Assembly (NCBI RefSeq): GCF_058153355.1
Contig: NZ_CM177019.1
DNA: 64,000 nt
Direction: 5' to 3' (one strand)
In this document: positions 59,337 to 64,000 of the stretch, piece after piece
Layout of the letters: each line of letters begins with the position of its first letter
Position numbering within the stretch: position 1 is the stretch's first letter
Notes under the pieces: generated by a model
Database searches by the model: none
Seen by the model: the letters and a program-made list of their open reading frames with translations, nothing else
Told to the model about the DNA's origin: nothing
Made by a program: the position numbers and the translations under genes

Positions 59337-60185
59337 ATGGAAAAGAAATTTTTTATGGATTGGGATAATGAAATCCCGCAAGAAGAGTTTATTAACAATA
59401 TTTTAGCCGATGAAGACCTGCCTAAAATCCGCTCTCTGATTATTGGTCGTTGGGGGGAGTGCTGGGATGAGGAAAGTTGCCAACCAATAATCGACATGTT
59501 TGTTGAACATGCCGAACGCTTTGCTCATCTCGAATCCCTATTTATCGGCGATATGGAAAGCGAAGAGTGTGAAATTTCGTGGATAAAACAAGGGGATTAT
59601 TCTCGTCTGTATGCTGCGCTGCCGAACCTGAAAAAGCTGACAATTAAAGGTACTCAGGGCCTGGAACTGGGAGAAATCGCCCATGACAAACTGGAGCATC
59701 TGGAAATTATCTCTGGCGGTACGCCGTGTGACGTGTTCGCCTCATTGCAAAATGCCCAACTGCCTGCGTTAAAAACACTTATCGTTTATATTGGCGTTGA
59801 GAATTATGGTTTTGATGCATCGCTGGATATCGTAATGAAGCTGGCGTCGAAATCCCTCTTCCCGAGCCTGACGCATCTTGGCCTGGTGAACAGCGAAGAG
59901 CAAAACGAAATCGTCCGCCGCGTGCTGGAAAGCGACATTCTGCCGCAACTGGAAGTGCTGGCACTCTCCTGCGGTACGCTTACCGACGAAGGTGCAGAGC
60001 ATCTTCTCAAACATGCCGATCGCCTTAGCCATCTGAAACTGCTGGATTTGTACCATCATTACCTGACAGAAGAGATGCAGAAAAAACTGCAAAAAACACT
60101 GACATGTACTCTCGAATTATCAGAAGCGCTAACGCCTGAAGTCTATGATGACGAAATTTATATGCATGCGATGTATACCGAATAA
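59337..60185 (+). CDS. Repeat-containing protein with leucine-rich-repeat-like segments (accessory cluster gene 1)
   Basis: 282 aa acidic protein with recurring LxxLxxLxL-type units (LPNLKKLTIKG, LEHLEIISG, LPALKTLIVY, FPSLTHLGLVN, LPQLEVLALSCG, LSHLKLLDLY); preceded by the ompL terminator and an AT-rich promoter-like region. Confidence 0.55.
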   Translation: MEKKFFMDWDNEIPQEEFINNILADEDLPKIRSLIIGRWGECWDEESCQPIIDMFVEHAERFAHLESLFIGDMESEECEISWIKQGDYSRLYAALPNLKKLTIKGTQGLELGEIAHDKLEHLEIISGGTPCDVFASLQNAQLPALKTLIVYIGVENYGFDASLDIVMKLASKSLFPSLTHLGLVNSEEQNEIVRRVLESDILPQLEVLALSCGTLTDEGAEHLLKHADRLSHLKLLDLYHHYLTEEMQKKLQKTLTCTLELSEALTPEVYDDEIYMHAMYTE

Positions 60186-61232
60186 ATGACATTTATTGGG
60201 AGAGAGTCATCTCTCCCATTATTTATCACAGAAAAGGAATTCTTCGTGATTACGCTAATTGGTCATCCTGAAAGCAAACGCACATTTTATTTTTGCCAGG
60301 CAGCGTCACGCTTACAGGAACATATCAACGTAGTGAGCTATGATCAAGCACTTACCCTGCTCTTAAATAAAGGCATGGTAAAAATCGATCCCCCCTTACA
60401 TCAGGAAACAGATATTCGCTTAATTAATACGGTTAGCCAAAACTATATTACTTTTTTACAAAAAATGGCTACCAGAAGGGAGATCCGTTTTATTAACTCA
60501 CCAGAAGGTATTATTCATCTTCTGGATAAACGCCACTGTAAGCAACGATTAGTCGAACACGCGATCCCGACACCGCCAATATTAGCGGATGATATCCGTA
60601 GCTACGATCAACTGATCGCCTGTATGCGCAGCGAAAAGGTTTATCGCGTGTTTATTAAGCCGAATTTCGGATCAGGGGCCGCCGGGGTGCTGGCTTTGAG
60701 TCTACATCCCGGCGATAACCGTCAGGCGCTTTATTGCGCCATCCAGGTTGCAGGTGACAGGCTGGTGAACAGTAAACATATTATCCGCTATGAAAACAGC
60801 GGTGATATTACGTTGATTGTGAATGCTATTTTACAACAAGACAATATTATCGAACGCTGGCTGGCAAAAGCCAGAGTGGGCAATAAAAGCTACGATTTAC
60901 GCATAGTGTACGTTAATGGTGAAATCGTCTGGCGGGTTGTCAGAACATCATCACAGCCGATCACCAATTTGCATCTGCAAAATGAAGCCATTCGTTTTGC
61001 CGATCTTAATTTACCCGCAGAAAAAGTGGCTGACATTGACACGCTTTGTCTCAACGCCATGAAACTCTACCCGGACGTACACATTGCCGGGCTTGATGTA
61101 TTACTCACGCAAAACTTAACCCCCTATATTATCGAAATTAACGGCCAGGGCGATCTTATTTATCAGGACACCTGCGAACAAAATATGATTTATCAACGCC
61201 AGATTCAGGTAATGAGAGAACACCATGTATAA
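60186..61232 (+). CDS. ATP-grasp family enzyme (YheC/YheD / RimK-like ligase) (accessory cluster gene 2)
   Basis: Motifs VFIKPNFGSGAAGVLAL, YDLRIVYVNGEIVW, YIIEINGQGD typical of ATP-grasp folds. Alternative GTG start at 60247 after a perfect hairpin gggagagagtcatctctccc (60205..60224). Confidence 0.6.
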   Translation: MTFIGRESSLPLFITEKEFFVITLIGHPESKRTFYFCQAASRLQEHINVVSYDQALTLLLNKGMVKIDPPLHQETDIRLINTVSQNYITFLQKMATRREIRFINSPEGIIHLLDKRHCKQRLVEHAIPTPPILADDIRSYDQLIACMRSEKVYRVFIKPNFGSGAAGVLALSLHPGDNRQALYCAIQVAGDRLVNSKHIIRYENSGDITLIVNAILQQDNIIERWLAKARVGNKSYDLRIVYVNGEIVWRVVRTSSQPITNLHLQNEAIRFADLNLPAEKVADIDTLCLNAMKLYPDVHIAGLDVLLTQNLTPYIIEINGQGDLIYQDTCEQNMIYQRQIQVMREHHV

Positions 61233-62097: not shown

Positions 62098-63232
62098 TGA
62101 ATCGATTTATCAGCAATATATGTACAGTTACCCGCATAAGACCGCTTATCGGGAATTAAACAATATTGCTTTTGCGGATGTGAAATCGCGTATTTACGAG
62201 CATAAAACACATCTCTATATTCATATGCCTTTTTGCCAGAGCCGCTGCGGGTTTTGTAATCTCTTTACCTGCACGGGGGCAGACAATGCCTTTATCGACA
62301 ACTACATAGAAGCAATTATTATCCAGGCCCGGCAAATGCAACTTGCGCCTGTAGACTGGGCCAGTTTTACCATTGGCGGCGGTACGCCACTACTGCTTAA
62401 TACCGGGCAACTGTCACGGTTGTTTCGCGGGGTGTTTGACGAATTACAGGTCGATGCGCAGATTTTTAAGGCAATTGAAACATCGCCTTCCGATACCACC
62501 GCCGAAAAGGTCGCGTTATTGCGCCAGCTTGCGGTAAGCCGCGGCAGGGGTAATTTCCCGATAATCAATATTGATATTATTTACGGTATTCCTGGTCAAA
62601 CAGCCGCAAGTTTAATGGCGTCGCTTAATCAGGCATTAGATTATCAGCCTGACGAACTTTTTTTGTACCCGCTGTATAACATGCCGCGCCAGCCGGATAT
62701 GTATAGCCTCTATATTGAAGCCCGCGATCGCTTATTGCATGAAGGTTATACGCAAACGTCAATGCGCCGTTTTGTGCGGGTGAATAATGAGTCGACGGCT
62801 GAAAGTTGTGGCTTTGAAAATTCGCTGGCGCTTGGCGCGGGCGGGCGCAGTTATCTTGGCAATTTACATTACTGCACGCCGTGGTCGCAAAACCAGCCCG
62901 CATCGCGGCAAATTGTCACGGATTTTATCGCCCGGCCAGATAAGACCCAGATTCACCACGGCTATGTACTTTCACAAGCAGAAATGAAGCGGCGTTTTAT
63001 TATCAAGAATCTCTTTTTCTATAAGGGGCTTTCGTTACGGGATTATCAGCATCAGTTCTTCTCTGAGGTATTAAGCGATTTTCCCCTGCTGGGAGATTTC
63101 ATCAAACAAGATTACTGCCACCAGCAGGATAATCGTATTCTGCTCACCGCGCAGGGTTTAGCGCTTTCGGACCAGCTTGGCCCGCTGTTTATCTCCCCGG
63201 AAGTTCGCAGGCTGGAGACGCATAAACGATGA
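62090..63232 (+). CDS. HemN/HemW-like radical SAM protein (accessory cluster gene 4)
   Basis: 380 aa; LYIHMPFCQSRCGFCNLF (CxxxCxxC followed by F) and GGGTP motif as in coproporphyrinogen-oxidase-like radical SAM enzymes; overlaps gene 3 by 8 bp. Confidence 0.7.
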   Translation: MNNESIYQQYMYSYPHKTAYRELNNIAFADVKSRIYEHKTHLYIHMPFCQSRCGFCNLFTCTGADNAFIDNYIEAIIIQARQMQLAPVDWASFTIGGGTPLLLNTGQLSRLFRGVFDELQVDAQIFKAIETSPSDTTAEKVALLRQLAVSRGRGNFPIINIDIIYGIPGQTAASLMASLNQALDYQPDELFLYPLYNMPRQPDMYSLYIEARDRLLHEGYTQTSMRRFVRVNNESTAESCGFENSLALGAGGRSYLGNLHYCTPWSQNQPASRQIVTDFIARPDKTQIHHGYVLSQAEMKRRFIIKNLFFYKGLSLRDYQHQFFSEVLSDFPLLGDFIKQDYCHQQDNRILLTAQGLALSDQLGPLFISPEVRRLETHKR

Positions 63233-64000
63233 CGCTCAAGCAGATCCAGACGCTGATTTATCGCGGCGAGATAAAGTCGTGTAATTATCGCTGTGGTTAT
63301 TGCCCTTTTCATAAACAAGACCGCAATGATAAACAGCAGGATGAAGTGGCATTATGGCGCATGGTTGAACATTTACCGGCGCTGGGTTCACCATTAAATG
63401 TATTTATTACGCCCTACGGCGAAGCATTGCGTTATCGTTATTATATGGCGGCGATGGCGGAAATCAGCCGCTATTCCCATGTGCAGGCGGTGGGTATTCA
63501 GACCAACGCCTCTTTTAATTTATCCACCTTAGTCGCGACTTTTCAGCACTCTCAGGGCGATTTAGCAAAGCTGCGGCTGTGGTGTTCGTTTCATCCTTCC
63601 CAGGTCAGTAAAGAAGTTTTCCTTAAACAGTTACTGGCAATTAAGGACACGGGGATTACCTGTTCTGTGGGGGCCGTCGCCAGCGTAGCCGACTATGACG
63701 AATTACAGTGGTTACGCGCGCATCTTCCTCCCGATATCTATTTCTGGCTAAACGCCAATGAGCGCGATAAAAGGCCCACCAGCGACGAAAGAAATAGCCA
63801 GTTTCAGTTGCTGGACCCGCTTTATTATCTGGAAACCAGCCTCTGGCCTGCCAATGTCGAGTTTTGTCTGGGCGGCAAAAAGAGCGTGTTTATGAATGCT
63901 GATGGCGATCTCTTCGCCTGTAATATCAGCAAAATTAAGATTGGCAATTTATATCAACAGCAACTTTCATCTCCGGCTTGTATGTCCAGGCACTGTCACT
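63229..64000 (+). CDS. Second radical SAM protein, 3' end outside the window (accessory cluster gene 5)
   Basis: Not in the ORF track because it lacks a stop inside the window. My translation from ATG 63229 (ATGA overlap with the gene 4 stop) is open to 64000 and begins MTLKQIQTLIYRGEIKSCNYRCGYCPF (CxxxCxxC at residues 18-25). Confidence 0.6.
   Translation, partial: MTLKQIQTLIYRGEIKSCNYRCGYCPFHKQDRNDKQQDEVALWRMVEHLPALGSPLNVFITPYGEALRYRYYMAAMAEISRYSHVQAVGIQTNASFNLSTLVATFQHSQGDLAKLRLWCSFHPSQVSKEVFLKQLLAIKDTGITCSVGAVASVADYDELQWLRAHLPPDIYFWLNANERDKRPTSDERNSQFQLLDPLYYLETSLWPANVEFCLGGKKSVFMNADGDLFACNISKIKIGNLYQQQLSSPACMSRHCH

What the first reader, a model, noticed from the sequence alone, without database searches (positions are those of the whole stretch)
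59337..64000. Compact five-gene accessory cluster after ompL: LRR-like protein, ATP-grasp, AP-superfamily enzyme and two radical SAM enzymes
Directly after the ompL terminator there are five co-directional, tightly packed genes: 0-bp spacing between genes 1 and 2, 8-bp overlaps for 2/3 and 3/4, and an ATGA overlap for 4/5. The combination of an ATP-grasp ligase, an AP-superfamily metalloenzyme, a HemN-like radical SAM and a second CxxxCxxC radical SAM next to a repeat protein does not match any characterised E. coli pathway I can name. It could be small-molecule or peptide modification, or a defence or conflict module. From recalled K-12 synteny this position should hold yihN/yihM/yihL, so the block looks like a replacement or insertion. 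The cluster continues beyond the window.
Basis: partly seen in the sequence, partly recalled or inferred. Interest (0 to 1): 0.8.

Follow-up and report, generated by a model that had tools for sequence, protein, structure and literature searches.

The report
STM4015–STM4011 cassette: unexplained tail-Glu operon
The gene block after ompL is the E. coli copy of a catalogued Salmonella and gut-anaerobe operon of unknown function, probably a ligase and two radical enzymes modifying the always-glutamate end of its own repeat protein, and this strain's copy carries a damaging deletion.

Summary
Five co-directional, tightly packed genes follow the ompL terminator, and the domain calls are right.

The block is not uncatalogued. 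All five proteins pass the curated NCBIfam cut-offs for the STM4015, STM4014, STM4013/SEN3800, STM4012 and STM4011 families, all typed as function unknown.

It lies at the same locus in Salmonella. It occurs in 157 of 5426 complete E. coli genomes, where it replaces yihLMN. A sixth gene, a HAD-IIB phosphatase, follows just beyond the window.

New points from this work:
- The cassette keeps its gene order in 51 of 62 informative species loci, mostly gut Clostridia.
- STM4011 is usually fused to a HAD phosphatase.
- The repeat protein and the ATP-grasp gene form the constant adjacent pair.
- 140 of 147 family representatives end in Glu.
- The ATP-grasp model is closest to ArgX/LysX and RimK, ligases that act on a protein's C-terminal Glu.

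Best model (inferred): a modification or carrier system aimed at a protein's C-terminal Glu.

In this window the HemN-like gene has a private 96-bp in-frame deletion that removes its SAM-binding strand, so the cassette is probably defective here. No defence or sulfatase-maturase role is supported.

The parts
59164..59201 (.). Hairpin terminator after ompL (stop at 59156). It marks the upstream boundary of the cassette.
   Evidence: Terminator scan found 15 pairs; sequence AAAAAGCCGCTGATATTTAAGCGGCTTTTT.
59207..59236 (+). Promoter-like site (TTCACA-18-AATTAT) about 100 nt upstream of STM4015. This is a consensus match only.
   Evidence: The number of such sites in the region is not above the shuffle expectation.
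59337..60185 (+). STM4015-family protein, 282 aa: an acidic RNI-type leucine-rich-repeat protein. Proposed substrate or carrier of the cassette.
   Evidence: NF038076 at 323 bits against a cut-off of 275. PDB 2RA8 at E 1.6e-71. The family profile hits ribonuclease inhibitor and NLRP LRRs.
60159..60182 (+). Codons for the conserved C-terminal tail Y-M-H-A-M-Y-T-E-COOH. Terminal Thr-Glu is invariant in the gut-type clade, and terminal Glu is near-universal in the whole family.
   Evidence: 89/89 locus homologues end in [MVL][LIMY]TE, and 115/120 cluster representatives end in TE. 140/147 of the 50%-identity representatives end in Glu.
60197..60218 (+). Stable hairpin (9-bp GC-rich stem) followed by AUUAUUUAU, in the spacer between STM4015 and STM4014. 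It may act as an attenuator that sets the substrate-to-enzyme ratio (inferred).
   Evidence: MFE -20.7 kcal/mol, z -3.1. It is not conserved in Clostridia, where the two genes overlap.
60246..61232 (+). STM4014-family ATP-grasp ligase. The probable start is GTG at 60246; the longest ORF starts at 60186.
   Evidence: NF038074 at 335 bits against a cut-off of 175. Pfam ATPgrasp_YheCD/ST. AlphaFold model pLDDT 89; best PDB folds are ArgX-LysW, RimK-RpsF and LysX.
61225..62097 (+). STM4013/SEN3800-family alkaline-phosphatase-superfamily enzyme with a Thr nucleophile. Predicted to be a phospho(di)esterase or phosphotransferase, not a sulfatase.
   Evidence: NF038075 at 350 bits against a cut-off of 250. 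Pfam Sulfatase 2.7e-16 plus Phosphodiest. Invariant D41, T76 (aligned to the sulfatase Cys/FGly), H80, D254-H255.
62090..63232 (+). STM4012-family HemN-like radical SAM enzyme. The allele here is 380 aa instead of 412.
   Evidence: NF006067 at 425 bits against a cut-off of 380, matched in two stretches. Pfam Radical_SAM plus HemN_C on the full-length homologue.
62541..62546 (+). Junction of a 96-bp in-frame deletion (32 aa, VSIGIQSFNDLELATLHRRHSAENAHRALELL) flanked by GCG microhomology. It removes the conserved GIQSF strand of the radical SAM barrel.
   Evidence: lost near-invariant residues S153, G155, Q157, S158, F159, E163, L164, R169, H171, L180. All 156 E. coli genomes with this region have the undeleted form.
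63229..64000 (+). STM4011-family radical SAM enzyme with a SPASM/twitch-like Cys cluster, cut by the window end at residue 257 of 285. A HAD-IIB phosphatase gene and then typA follow in relatives.
   Evidence: NF038073 at 274 bits against a cut-off of 200. Invariant C18/C22/C25 plus C213-x12-G-x4-C231, C251, C256, C258. Best folds are SkfB, viperin-like enzymes, EpeE and anSME. Downstream genes are shown.

Best explanation
This is the E. coli orthologue of the Salmonella STM4015-STM4014-STM4013-STM4012-STM4011 cassette, plus the HAD-IIB phosphatase gene that follows it. It is a self-contained cytoplasmic operon, mobile over evolutionary time, found mainly in gut anaerobes. No function has been demonstrated for it.

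Proposed mechanism:
1. The acidic LRR protein STM4015 is the substrate or carrier of the system (inferred).
2. The RimK/LysX-like ATP-grasp ligase STM4014 activates a carboxylate of STM4015's conserved C-terminal glutamate as an acyl-phosphate and joins an amine, such as an amino acid, to it (inferred).
3. The SPASM/twitch-type radical SAM enzyme STM4011 and the HemN-like radical SAM enzyme STM4012 then carry out radical chemistry on the tail or on the tethered group (inferred).
4. The Thr-nucleophile AP-superfamily enzyme STM4013 and the HAD-IIB phosphatase add or remove a phosphoester on the way (inferred; the least certain step).

Shown here: family membership, synteny, distribution, the conserved tail, the constant LRR/ATP-grasp gene pair, the fold similarities and the intact catalytic motifs.

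In this particular strain the HemN-like gene has lost 32 residues of its SAM-binding core, so the pathway is probably blocked at that step.
For: Identity:
- All five proteins exceed the curated NCBIfam cut-offs.
- RefSeq annotates the same five names plus a Cof-type HAD in 157 E. coli chromosomes.
- Salmonella has the same ompL-...-typA synteny, while K-12 has yihLMN there.

The cassette is a unit:
- 51 of 62 species loci with enough flank keep all five families in the same order.
- In 41 of those 51, STM4011 is fused to a HAD (Hydrolase_3) domain.
- The neighbourhoods outside the cassette are unrelated.

LRR/ATP-grasp coupling:
- STM4014 lies next to STM4015 in 77 of 78 gut-type loci with room to show it.
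- Six loci contain only this pair.
- In the environmental clade the pair stays adjacent in 5 of 6 single-domain loci sampled (not L090), even where the other enzyme genes are on the opposite strand.

The tail:
- 89/89 locus homologues end in TE.
- 140/147 of the 50%-identity representatives end in Glu, preceded by T, S, G or A. The region upstream has a net charge of about -6, and the whole protein about -27.
- The solved homologue 2RA8 ends in ...YPMITE.

The ligase:
- The AlphaFold model (pLDDT 89) is closest to ArgX bound to LysW (2.6e-15), RimK bound to RpsF (1.9e-13) and LysX/ArgX with LysW-gamma-AAA.
- The best sub-threshold sequence families are MptN, RimK, LysX and CofF.
- From established knowledge, LysX/ArgX and RimK ligate onto the C-terminal Glu of LysW and of ribosomal protein S6.

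The radical SAM enzymes:
- STM4011 has the CX12GX4C SPASM signature plus three more invariant Cys.
- Its best structural match is the RiPP maturase SkfB, with EpeE and anSME close behind.

The deletion.
Against: - No experiment supports any step.
- The fold margin over D-Ala-D-Ala ligases and PsnB is only 2-3 orders of magnitude in E-value. An STM4014 profile finds nothing in the PDB by sequence.
- The cassette encodes no amidase or peptidase, so a LysW-style release step is missing.
- It encodes no kinase to explain why two phosphoesterases are present.
- STM4011's fold neighbours also include nucleotide-modifying viperins and the sugar dehydrogenase BtrN.
- Some STM4015 relatives occur without any cassette enzyme nearby (L090, L096). 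L080 has three LRR paralogues but no ATP-grasp between them and STM4013.
- A conserved C-terminal Glu could instead serve binding or regulation.
Confidence: 0.45

Rival explanations
1. Small-molecule pathway, possibly nucleotide-derived. The four or five enzymes would build or degrade a phosphorylated metabolite: an NPP-like phosphodiesterase and a HAD nucleotidase or phosphatase trim phosphates, a viperin-like and a HemN-like radical SAM enzyme modify it, and the ATP-grasp adds an amino acid. STM4015 would be only a scaffold, sensor or regulator, not the substrate.
For: STM4011's fold neighbours include viperin-like CTP-modifying enzymes and BtrN. STM4013 matches Pfam Phosphodiest/NPP and PDB nucleotide pyrophosphatases, and has the Thr nucleophile typical of NPP. 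The E. coli HAD is closest to sugar and pyridoxal-phosphate phosphatases. STM4014's sub-threshold hits include the cofactor-tail ligases MptN and CofF. WGR, KOW and DUF1508 domains are fused to some STM4015 relatives.
Against: This reading does not explain the near-universal C-terminal Glu of STM4015. It does not explain the stand-alone LRR plus ATP-grasp pairs, or why that pair alone stays adjacent when the operon is rearranged. The cassette has no transporter, regulator or dedicated nucleotide-binding enzyme.
Confidence: 0.22
2. RiPP- or cofactor-like maturation. The C-terminal residues of STM4015 themselves (aromatic...Glu) would be cross-linked or rebuilt by the radical SAM enzymes and then excised as a small product, as in PQQ or mycofactocin, with the LRR body acting as a giant leader.
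For: STM4011 is SPASM/twitch-type and closest to the RiPP maturases SkfB and EpeE. The tail has a conserved aromatic residue (Tyr, Trp or Phe) 5-7 residues before the terminal Glu. L080 has three tandem copies of the 'precursor'. E. coli has a hairpin after the precursor gene.
Against: The cassette has no peptidase, RRE/PqqD-like partner or exporter. A 280-aa folded, highly conserved LRR domain is unlike any known leader. Tyr and Trp interchange at the conserved aromatic position, so PQQ-type chemistry on a Tyr hydroxyl is not conserved there. The two tail types differ at every position except the aromatic at -5 and the final Glu.
Confidence: 0.15
3. Anti-phage defence or another conflict system, with the LRR protein, sometimes fused to WGR, acting as the sensor.
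For: LRR sensors are common in immunity. One Clostridial locus has an nSTAND-TPR NTPase just downstream. The 789-aa relative in L096 sits beside AAA_21/RloB and SMI1_KNR4 genes. The cassette is patchily distributed in E. coli.
Against: None of the six proteins gave a meaningful PADLOC hit. The cassette has a fixed chromosomal site shared by Escherichia and Salmonella, between housekeeping genes. Flanks in other taxa are ordinary metabolic genes. No nuclease, toxin or abortive-infection effector is encoded.
Confidence: 0.05
4. Anaerobic sulfatase plus its radical SAM maturase (anSME-type), with accessory genes.
For: STM4013's best Pfam family is Sulfatase. anSME is among STM4011's fold neighbours.
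Against: The residue aligned to the sulfatase Cys/Ser-to-formylglycine position is an invariant Thr in a T-[WYFL]-P-S-H motif, not C/S-x-P-x-R. STM4013 is a short (about 290 aa) cytoplasmic protein with no signal peptide evident in the sequence.
Confidence: 0.02

Closest known systems
Salmonella enterica STM4015-STM4011 cassette (NCBIfam NF038076, NF038074, NF038075, NF006067, NF038073)
   Same: All five proteins pass the curated cut-offs. The gene order is the same, and so is the chromosomal site between ompL and typA. A HAD-IIB gene follows STM4011 in both.
   Different: Amino-acid identity to Salmonella is only 55-76%, against 85-88% for the adjacent yih genes and 96-98% for typA and glnA. 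The window's STM4012 carries a private 32-aa deletion. The families themselves have no assigned function.
LysW/LysX-ArgX amino-group carrier protein system (Thermus and archaeal lysine/arginine biosynthesis; related Streptomyces secondary-metabolite pathways). Function taken from established knowledge.
   Same: An acidic protein ending in Glu is encoded next to a RimK-superfamily ATP-grasp ligase. The best structural matches of STM4014 are ArgX-LysW and LysX/ArgX-LysW complexes. Downstream enzymes could act on a tethered group.
   Different: The carrier here is a 282-aa LRR protein, not a roughly 55-aa zinc-ribbon LysW. LysX/ArgX family scores are far below cut-off (31 against 276 bits). There are no LysZ/Y/J/K homologues and no release amidase. 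The partners are two radical SAM enzymes and two phosphoesterases.
RimK and ribosomal protein S6 (poly-alpha-glutamylation of a C-terminal Glu); eukaryotic tubulin tyrosine ligase is the analogous case. Function taken from established knowledge.
   Same: An ATP-grasp ligase acts on the C-terminal Glu of a folded protein. RimK-RpsF (5ZK6) is the third-ranked hit and second distinct structure in the fold search. There are weak RimK and TTL sequence hits.
   Different: RimK-family score is 38 bits against a cut-off of 143. The substrate is encoded in the same operon. Four further enzymes are always co-inherited.
PQQ and mycofactocin pathways, and pearlin (PEARL) scaffold-peptide pathways. Function taken from established knowledge.
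   Same: All involve radical SAM/SPASM chemistry or amino-acid addition at the C-terminal residues of a ribosomal product encoded in the operon. STM4011 has the SPASM signature and is closest to SkfB.
   Different: The 'precursor' here is a large folded protein. There is no PqqD/RRE, peptidase, flavoprotein or tRNA-dependent ligase. The ligase is an ATP-grasp.
HemN (oxygen-independent coproporphyrinogen III dehydrogenase) and class C HemN-like radical SAM enzymes
   Same: STM4012 has CxxxCxxC, GGGTP, GIQSF and NxDxIYGIP motifs, a HemN_C domain, and a HemN-like N-terminal Y-x-SYP motif.
   Different: The TIGR00538 score is 82 bits against a cut-off of 325, and the fourth Cys of HemN is absent. 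A genuine hemN gene lies about 8 kb away in the same genomes. The substrate is unknown.

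Membership tests
STM4011-STM4015 cassette (NCBIfam) | Each protein scores above the curated whole-protein cut-off of its family model. | tested here: met
   Scores against cut-offs, in bits: 4015 323/275; 4014 335/175; 4013 350/250; 4012 425/380 (despite the deletion); 4011 274/200 (despite truncation).
STM4011-STM4015 cassette (NCBIfam) | Co-linear five-gene operon in the order 4015-4014-4013-4012-4011. 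| tested here: met
   The window, E. coli L001, Salmonella L089, and 51/62 species loci.
STM4011-STM4015 cassette (NCBIfam) | All members intact, so the system is functional. | tested here: not met
   STM4012 lacks 32 residues, including the near-invariant GIQSF segment. The 3' end of STM4011 and the HAD gene lie outside the window.
LysW/LysX amino-group carrier protein system | Carrier protein whose C-terminal Glu is the attachment site. | tested here: inconclusive
   The terminal Glu is conserved in 140/147 representatives and the protein is strongly acidic. Attachment is not demonstrated, and the protein is an LRR, not a LysW zinc ribbon.
LysW/LysX amino-group carrier protein system | LysX/ArgX-family ATP-grasp ligase. 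| tested here: not met
   TIGR02144 LysX scores 31 bits against a cut-off of 276. There is fold-level similarity only.
LysW/LysX amino-group carrier protein system | LysZ kinase, LysY reductase, LysJ aminotransferase and LysK hydrolase partners. | tested here: not met
   None occurs in the cassette or its conserved neighbours.
RimK family alpha-L-glutamate ligase | Score above the TIGR00768 cut-off. | tested here: not met
   38 bits against 143.
Radical SAM/SPASM RiPP maturation (PQQ, mycofactocin, sactipeptide type) | SPASM or twitch auxiliary-cluster domain on the radical SAM enzyme. | tested here: inconclusive
   Pfam SPASM at E 0.004. The CX12GX4C motif plus three invariant Cys are present. 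The top fold match is SkfB at only E 1.9e-6 and TM 0.57.
Radical SAM/SPASM RiPP maturation (PQQ, mycofactocin, sactipeptide type) | Short precursor peptide, a recognition element (RRE/PqqD), and a peptidase or exporter. | tested here: not met
   There is no small conserved ORF, since the genes abut or overlap. No such Pfam families occur in the loci.
Formylglycine sulfatase plus anSME maturase | C/S-x-P-x-R motif at the nucleophile position. | tested here: not met
   Invariant T76 in an N-F-T-[WYFL]-P-S-H motif.
Known anti-phage defence systems (PADLOC-DB 2.0) | A significant match of any component to a defence-system model. | tested here: not met
   Six proteins gave no hits. Full-length STM4012 gave one weak hit to candidate PDC-M51A (E 9e-6, 23 bits).
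HemN coproporphyrinogen dehydrogenase | Score above the TIGR00538 cut-off, with the CxxxCxxCxC motif. | tested here: not met
   82 bits against 325, and no fourth Cys.

The most novel reading that the evidence does not exclude
The STM4015/STM4014 pair would define a large, unrecognised class of protein-C-terminus chemistry. The class has at least 4,600 clusters at 50% identity, spanning gut Clostridia, Bacteroidota, Enterobacteria and soil bacteria. In it, an operon-encoded LRR protein has its terminal glutamate loaded by a dedicated ATP-grasp ligase and then remodelled by a SPASM-type and a HemN-like radical SAM enzyme. The outcome would be either a new post-translational modification that arms the LRR protein, or a protein-tethered route to a new metabolite or cofactor.
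Probability: 0.35. Interest if true: 0.8.

Novelty: new member of a known kind. Interest (0 to 1): 0.5.

Why it matters
The cassette is widespread in gut bacteria, including Salmonella, about 3% of complete E. coli genomes, many Lachnospiraceae and Bacteroides fragilis. It also has a large environmental sister clade. Yet it has only placeholder names.

This work turns 'five odd enzymes next to a repeat protein' into a testable proposal. The repeat protein's terminal glutamate is the handle, the ATP-grasp is the enzyme that uses it, and the two radical SAM enzymes act afterwards. If correct, the LysW/RimK logic of C-terminal-Glu ligation would extend to a new protein fold and link to radical SAM chemistry. 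It would also give a function to a 2007 structural-genomics structure (2RA8).

For this genome the practical message is more modest. The locus is an already-annotated accessory operon that is probably inactivated by a private deletion, so this strain is a poor choice for experiments.

Tried and rejected
- **Defence system:** a PADLOC scan of all six proteins found nothing meaningful.
- **Sulfatase plus anSME maturase:** rejected because the nucleophile position is an invariant Thr.
- **Small precursor-peptide ORF:** the genes abut or overlap. The only spacer is 60 nt and holds a hairpin, not an ORF.
- **Literature:** locus tags STM4011-4015/SEN3800 appear only in two data tables, a sigma-54 ChIP site and a positive-selection list. 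Searches for 2RA8/Q64V53, WGR with radical SAM, C-terminal glutamate with ATP-grasp, and HemN-like with SPASM with pearlin returned nothing relevant. The Iyer et al. 2009 amidoligase paper is not held.
- **Sequence-profile search of the ATP-grasp against the PDB:** no hit. Only the fold search was informative.
- **Rosetta-stone argument for the HAD gene:** only partly upheld. The separate enterobacterial HAD and the fused clostridial HAD domain are both Cof-type HAD-IIB but share only about 23% identity. Two environmental loci have no HAD.
- **Recent transfer from Salmonella:** rejected, since identity is only 55-76%.
- **The deletion as a lineage marker:** rejected, since none of the 156 complete genomes carrying the region has it. 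I could not test whether it is an assembly error.
- **Metagenome-wide peptide scan:** not run, because the extra loci were judged not worth the cost.

Full report
**1. Observation**

- ORFs lie at 59337-60185, 60186-61232, 61225-62097 and 62090-63232. A fifth frame is open from 63229 to the end of the window.
- The 8-bp overlaps (genes 2/3 and 3/4) and the ATGA overlap (4/5) are real.
- ompL stops at 59156 and is followed by a strong hairpin at 59164-59201.
- The '0-bp spacing' between genes 1 and 2 is doubtful. The NCBIfam profile for gene 2 starts at residue 23. PGAP starts the E. coli orthologue 20 codons later. Homologues from other phyla begin there. Residues 1-16 are disordered in the AlphaFold model. 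A GTG at 60246 is preceded by AAGGA.
- That start leaves a 60-nt spacer containing a stable hairpin at 60197-60218 (RNA fold z = -3.1).
- GC content is 45.9% in the cassette against about 50% in the core flank.

**2. What it is**

All five proteins exceed the curated NCBIfam cut-offs for the STM4015, STM4014, STM4013/SEN3800, STM4012 and STM4011 families. Four of the five are typed 'hypothetical equivalog' or 'subfamily', meaning no known function.

Megablast against 5426 complete E. coli genomes finds the block in 157 of them. It is always chromosomal and single-copy, and RefSeq annotates it with exactly these names. Nine genomes match at 98.6% identity and 148 at about 94.7%.

In the best match the gene order is yihS-yihR-tauE-yihQ-yihP-yihO-ompL-4015-4014-4013-4012-4011-(Cof-type HAD-IIB hydrolase)-typA(-)-glnA. 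Salmonella has the identical arrangement. K-12 has yihL-yihM-yihN between bipA/typA and ompL, and 4423 of 5426 genomes carry yihLMN.

But it is neither novel as an entity nor E. coli-specific.

Cassette proteins are only 55-76% identical between E. coli and Salmonella. The adjacent yih genes are 85-88% identical, and typA and glnA 96-98%. The shared location therefore does not reflect recent transfer.

**3. Strain-specific damage**

The window's STM4012 is 380 aa instead of 412. A 96-bp in-frame deletion, flanked by GCG microhomology at about 62543/62544, removes VSIGIQSFNDLELATLHRRHSAENAHRALELL.

Ten of the lost positions are at least 90% conserved in the family, including the G-I-Q-S-F strand that corresponds to the SAM-binding GxQ motif of HemN-type enzymes. 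All 156 complete genomes that carry this stretch have the undeleted form.

The HemN-like enzyme is therefore very probably inactive here. I could not exclude an assembly error.

**4. The parts**

- **STM4015.** Pfam LRR hits are insignificant. A family profile, however, hits ribonuclease inhibitor (5e-5) and NLRP LRRs. It matches the unpublished structural-genomics entry 2RA8 from Bacteroides fragilis at 4.7e-97.
- **STM4014.** An ATP-grasp (Pfam YheCD/ST types). Its best sub-threshold NCBIfam families are MptN, RimK, LysX and CofF. The ATP-grasp catalytic residues are invariant.
- **STM4013.** Belongs to the sulfatase/alkaline-phosphatase superfamily. Invariant residues are D41, T76, H80, H203 and D254-H255. 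T76 aligns with the Cys that becomes formylglycine in sulfatases, giving N-F-T-[WYFL]-P-S-H. This is the Thr-nucleophile arrangement of phosphodiesterases and phosphotransferases, not a sulfatase.
- **STM4012.** Radical SAM plus HemN_C.
- **STM4011.** A short radical SAM protein with the C18-x3-C22-x2-C25 motif. It also has C213-x12-G-x4-C231 (the SPASM/twitch signature) and invariant C251, C256 and C258. Its AlphaFold model (pLDDT 87) is closest to SkfB, viperin-like enzymes, EpeE, anSME and BtrN, all at TM about 0.5.

**5. Comparative genomics**

STM4015 relatives at about 50% identity are abundant in gut Clostridia, especially Lachnospiraceae. A scan of one genome per species found relatives in 503 species.

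Of 62 loci with at least 6 kb downstream:
- 51 keep all five families in the same order;
- 6 have only the STM4015 plus STM4014 pair, followed by unrelated housekeeping genes;
- 5 are partial.

In 41 of the 51 complete loci STM4011 is fused to a Cof-type HAD domain. This ties the HAD-IIB gene that follows STM4011 in Enterobacteria to the system. The enterobacterial and fused HADs are only about 23% identical, though.

Flanking genes differ from taxon to taxon, so the cassette is self-contained. Bacteroidota versions carry an N-terminal WGR domain on the LRR protein.

An exhaustive profile search of 1.84 billion cluster representatives gives 4615 hits at E <= 1e-3 and 951 at E <= 1e-30. This reveals a larger, mostly environmental sister clade. 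It still scores above the STM4015 cut-off and still sits with STM4014, 4013, 4012 and 4011 homologues.

In that clade the enzyme genes can lie on the opposite strand. Even so, the ATP-grasp gene stays directly adjacent to the LRR gene in five of six single-domain loci sampled; L090 is the exception.

**6. The key regularity**

- Every one of 89 full-length STM4015 homologues in the fetched loci ends in [MVL]-[LIMY]-Thr-Glu-COOH. So do 115 of 120 cluster representatives; the five exceptions are fragments or chimeras.
- Across the wider family, 140 of 147 representatives end in Glu, preceded by Ser (49), Gly (38), Thr (37) or Ala (9).
- There are two tail types: ...Y-P-M-[LIFY]-T-E and ...R-Y-[VI]-A-V-[SGA]-E.
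- The 22 residues upstream of the tail carry a mean charge of -5.7, and the whole protein about -27.
- 2RA8's native end is ...YPMITE.

The AlphaFold model of STM4014 (pLDDT 89) is closest in the PDB to four structures:
- ArgX in complex with LysW (2.6e-15);
- RimK in complex with RpsF (1.9e-13);
- LysX/ArgX with LysW-gamma-aminoadipate;
- DcsG.

These rank ahead of the D-Ala-D-Ala ligases and the graspetide ligase PsnB.

From established knowledge, LysX/ArgX attach an amino acid to the gamma-carboxyl of the C-terminal Glu of the acidic carrier LysW. RimK extends the C-terminal Glu of ribosomal protein S6.

Three lines converge: a constant gene pair, a near-universal terminal Glu on an acidic protein, and these fold relatives. 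They support the model that STM4014 ligates something onto the terminal Glu of STM4015. The steps after that, radical SAM chemistry on the tail or tethered group and phosphoester handling by STM4013 and the HAD, are inference only.

**7. Rivals**

- **Small-molecule or nucleotide pathway, with STM4015 as a bystander.** Compatible with the viperin, NPP and HAD similarities. It leaves the tail and the gene pair unexplained.
- **RiPP/cofactor-like excision of the tail.** Fits the SPASM enzyme. It lacks a peptidase, RRE or exporter, and the tail sequence is not conserved apart from one aromatic position and the final Glu.
- **Defence.** No PADLOC support, and the cassette has an ordinary, fixed chromosomal context.
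- **Sulfatase plus maturase.** Contradicted by the invariant Thr.

**8. Standing relative to what is known**

The locus is a member of the catalogued STM4011-4015 cassette, since all membership tests are met except intactness. It is not a member of the LysX, RimK or HemN equivalog families; scores are far below the cut-offs. It may work like the LysW or RimK systems.

I found no functional study in the held literature. The family name 'SEN3800' suggests that a Salmonella Enteritidis mutant was once described, but I could not retrieve such a paper.

**9. Verdict**

- As an entity the locus is already annotated, and here it is damaged.
- As a system it remains unexplained, and now has a specific, testable mechanistic hypothesis.

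Interest is moderate at 0.5. It would be high if the C-terminal-Glu model is confirmed.

Noticed in passing
window ~14,788-51,504: A Mu-like transposable prophage of about 36.7 kb (transposase, DUF935 portal, terminase, tail sheath, tape measure) is inserted between yihS (13507-14748) and yihR, splitting the sulfoquinovose cluster. The same phage, at 97.5% identity, sits at other chromosomal positions in 40 of 5426 E. coli genomes.
   Followed up: partly
window 52504-53379: A TauE/SafE sulfite-exporter gene lies between yihR and yihQ. It is absent from K-12 and present in Salmonella, so this E. coli lineage has the 'Salmonella-like' architecture of the whole yih region, not just the cassette.
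   Followed up: partly
window 60197-60218: A GC-rich 9-bp hairpin followed by AUUAUUUAU lies in the 60-nt spacer between the STM4015 stop codon and the probable GTG start of STM4014. It may attenuate read-through so that the LRR protein is made in excess. It is not conserved in Clostridia, where the two genes overlap.
   Followed up: partly
protein P0029 (Salmonella Typhi), compared with L089 9001-10887: A Typhi protein of 319 aa is a chimera of roughly the first 190 residues of STM4015 and STM4014 residues 210-341. An internal deletion has therefore destroyed both the tail and the ligase in that host-restricted serovar. It may also explain the 'positive selection' flag for STM4015 in Typhi in PMC2784778.
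   Followed up: partly
L080 1116-5260 (Defluviitaleaceae MAG): Three tandem STM4015 paralogues, all ending in ...PMITE, are followed directly by STM4013 and STM4012, with no ATP-grasp gene between them.
   Followed up: no
L096 8001-10370: A 789-aa protein carries the STM4015 module and a ...YPMLTE end but has no cassette enzymes nearby. It lies in an island with AAA_21/RloB and SMI1_KNR4 genes. Other relatives carry N-terminal WGR, DUF1508, KOW or TPR/Sel1 domains.
   Followed up: no
L093, L094 versus gut-type loci L002-L087: Tails ending in Thr-Glu go with a HAD-IIB phosphatase, either fused to STM4011 or following it. The two environmental loci seen in full, whose tails end in Ser-Glu (L093) and Gly-Glu (L094), have STM4011 without a HAD. 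The sample is too small to say whether the phosphatase is linked to the penultimate Thr.
   Followed up: no
Salmonella STM4013 (orthologue of window 61225-62097): A sigma-54 holoenzyme ChIP-chip site (TGGCATAAAACCTGAAAA) was reported inside STM4013 in antisense orientation in S. Typhimurium LT2 (PMC3844500). I did not check whether the site is present in the window.
   Followed up: no
E. coli genomes: The cassette occurs in E. coli as two alleles about 5% apart: 9 genomes at 98.6% and 148 at about 94.7% identity to the window. This suggests an old polymorphism or import from other Escherichia species. The closest STM4015 protein clusters are named E. fergusonii and E. marmotae.
   Followed up: no
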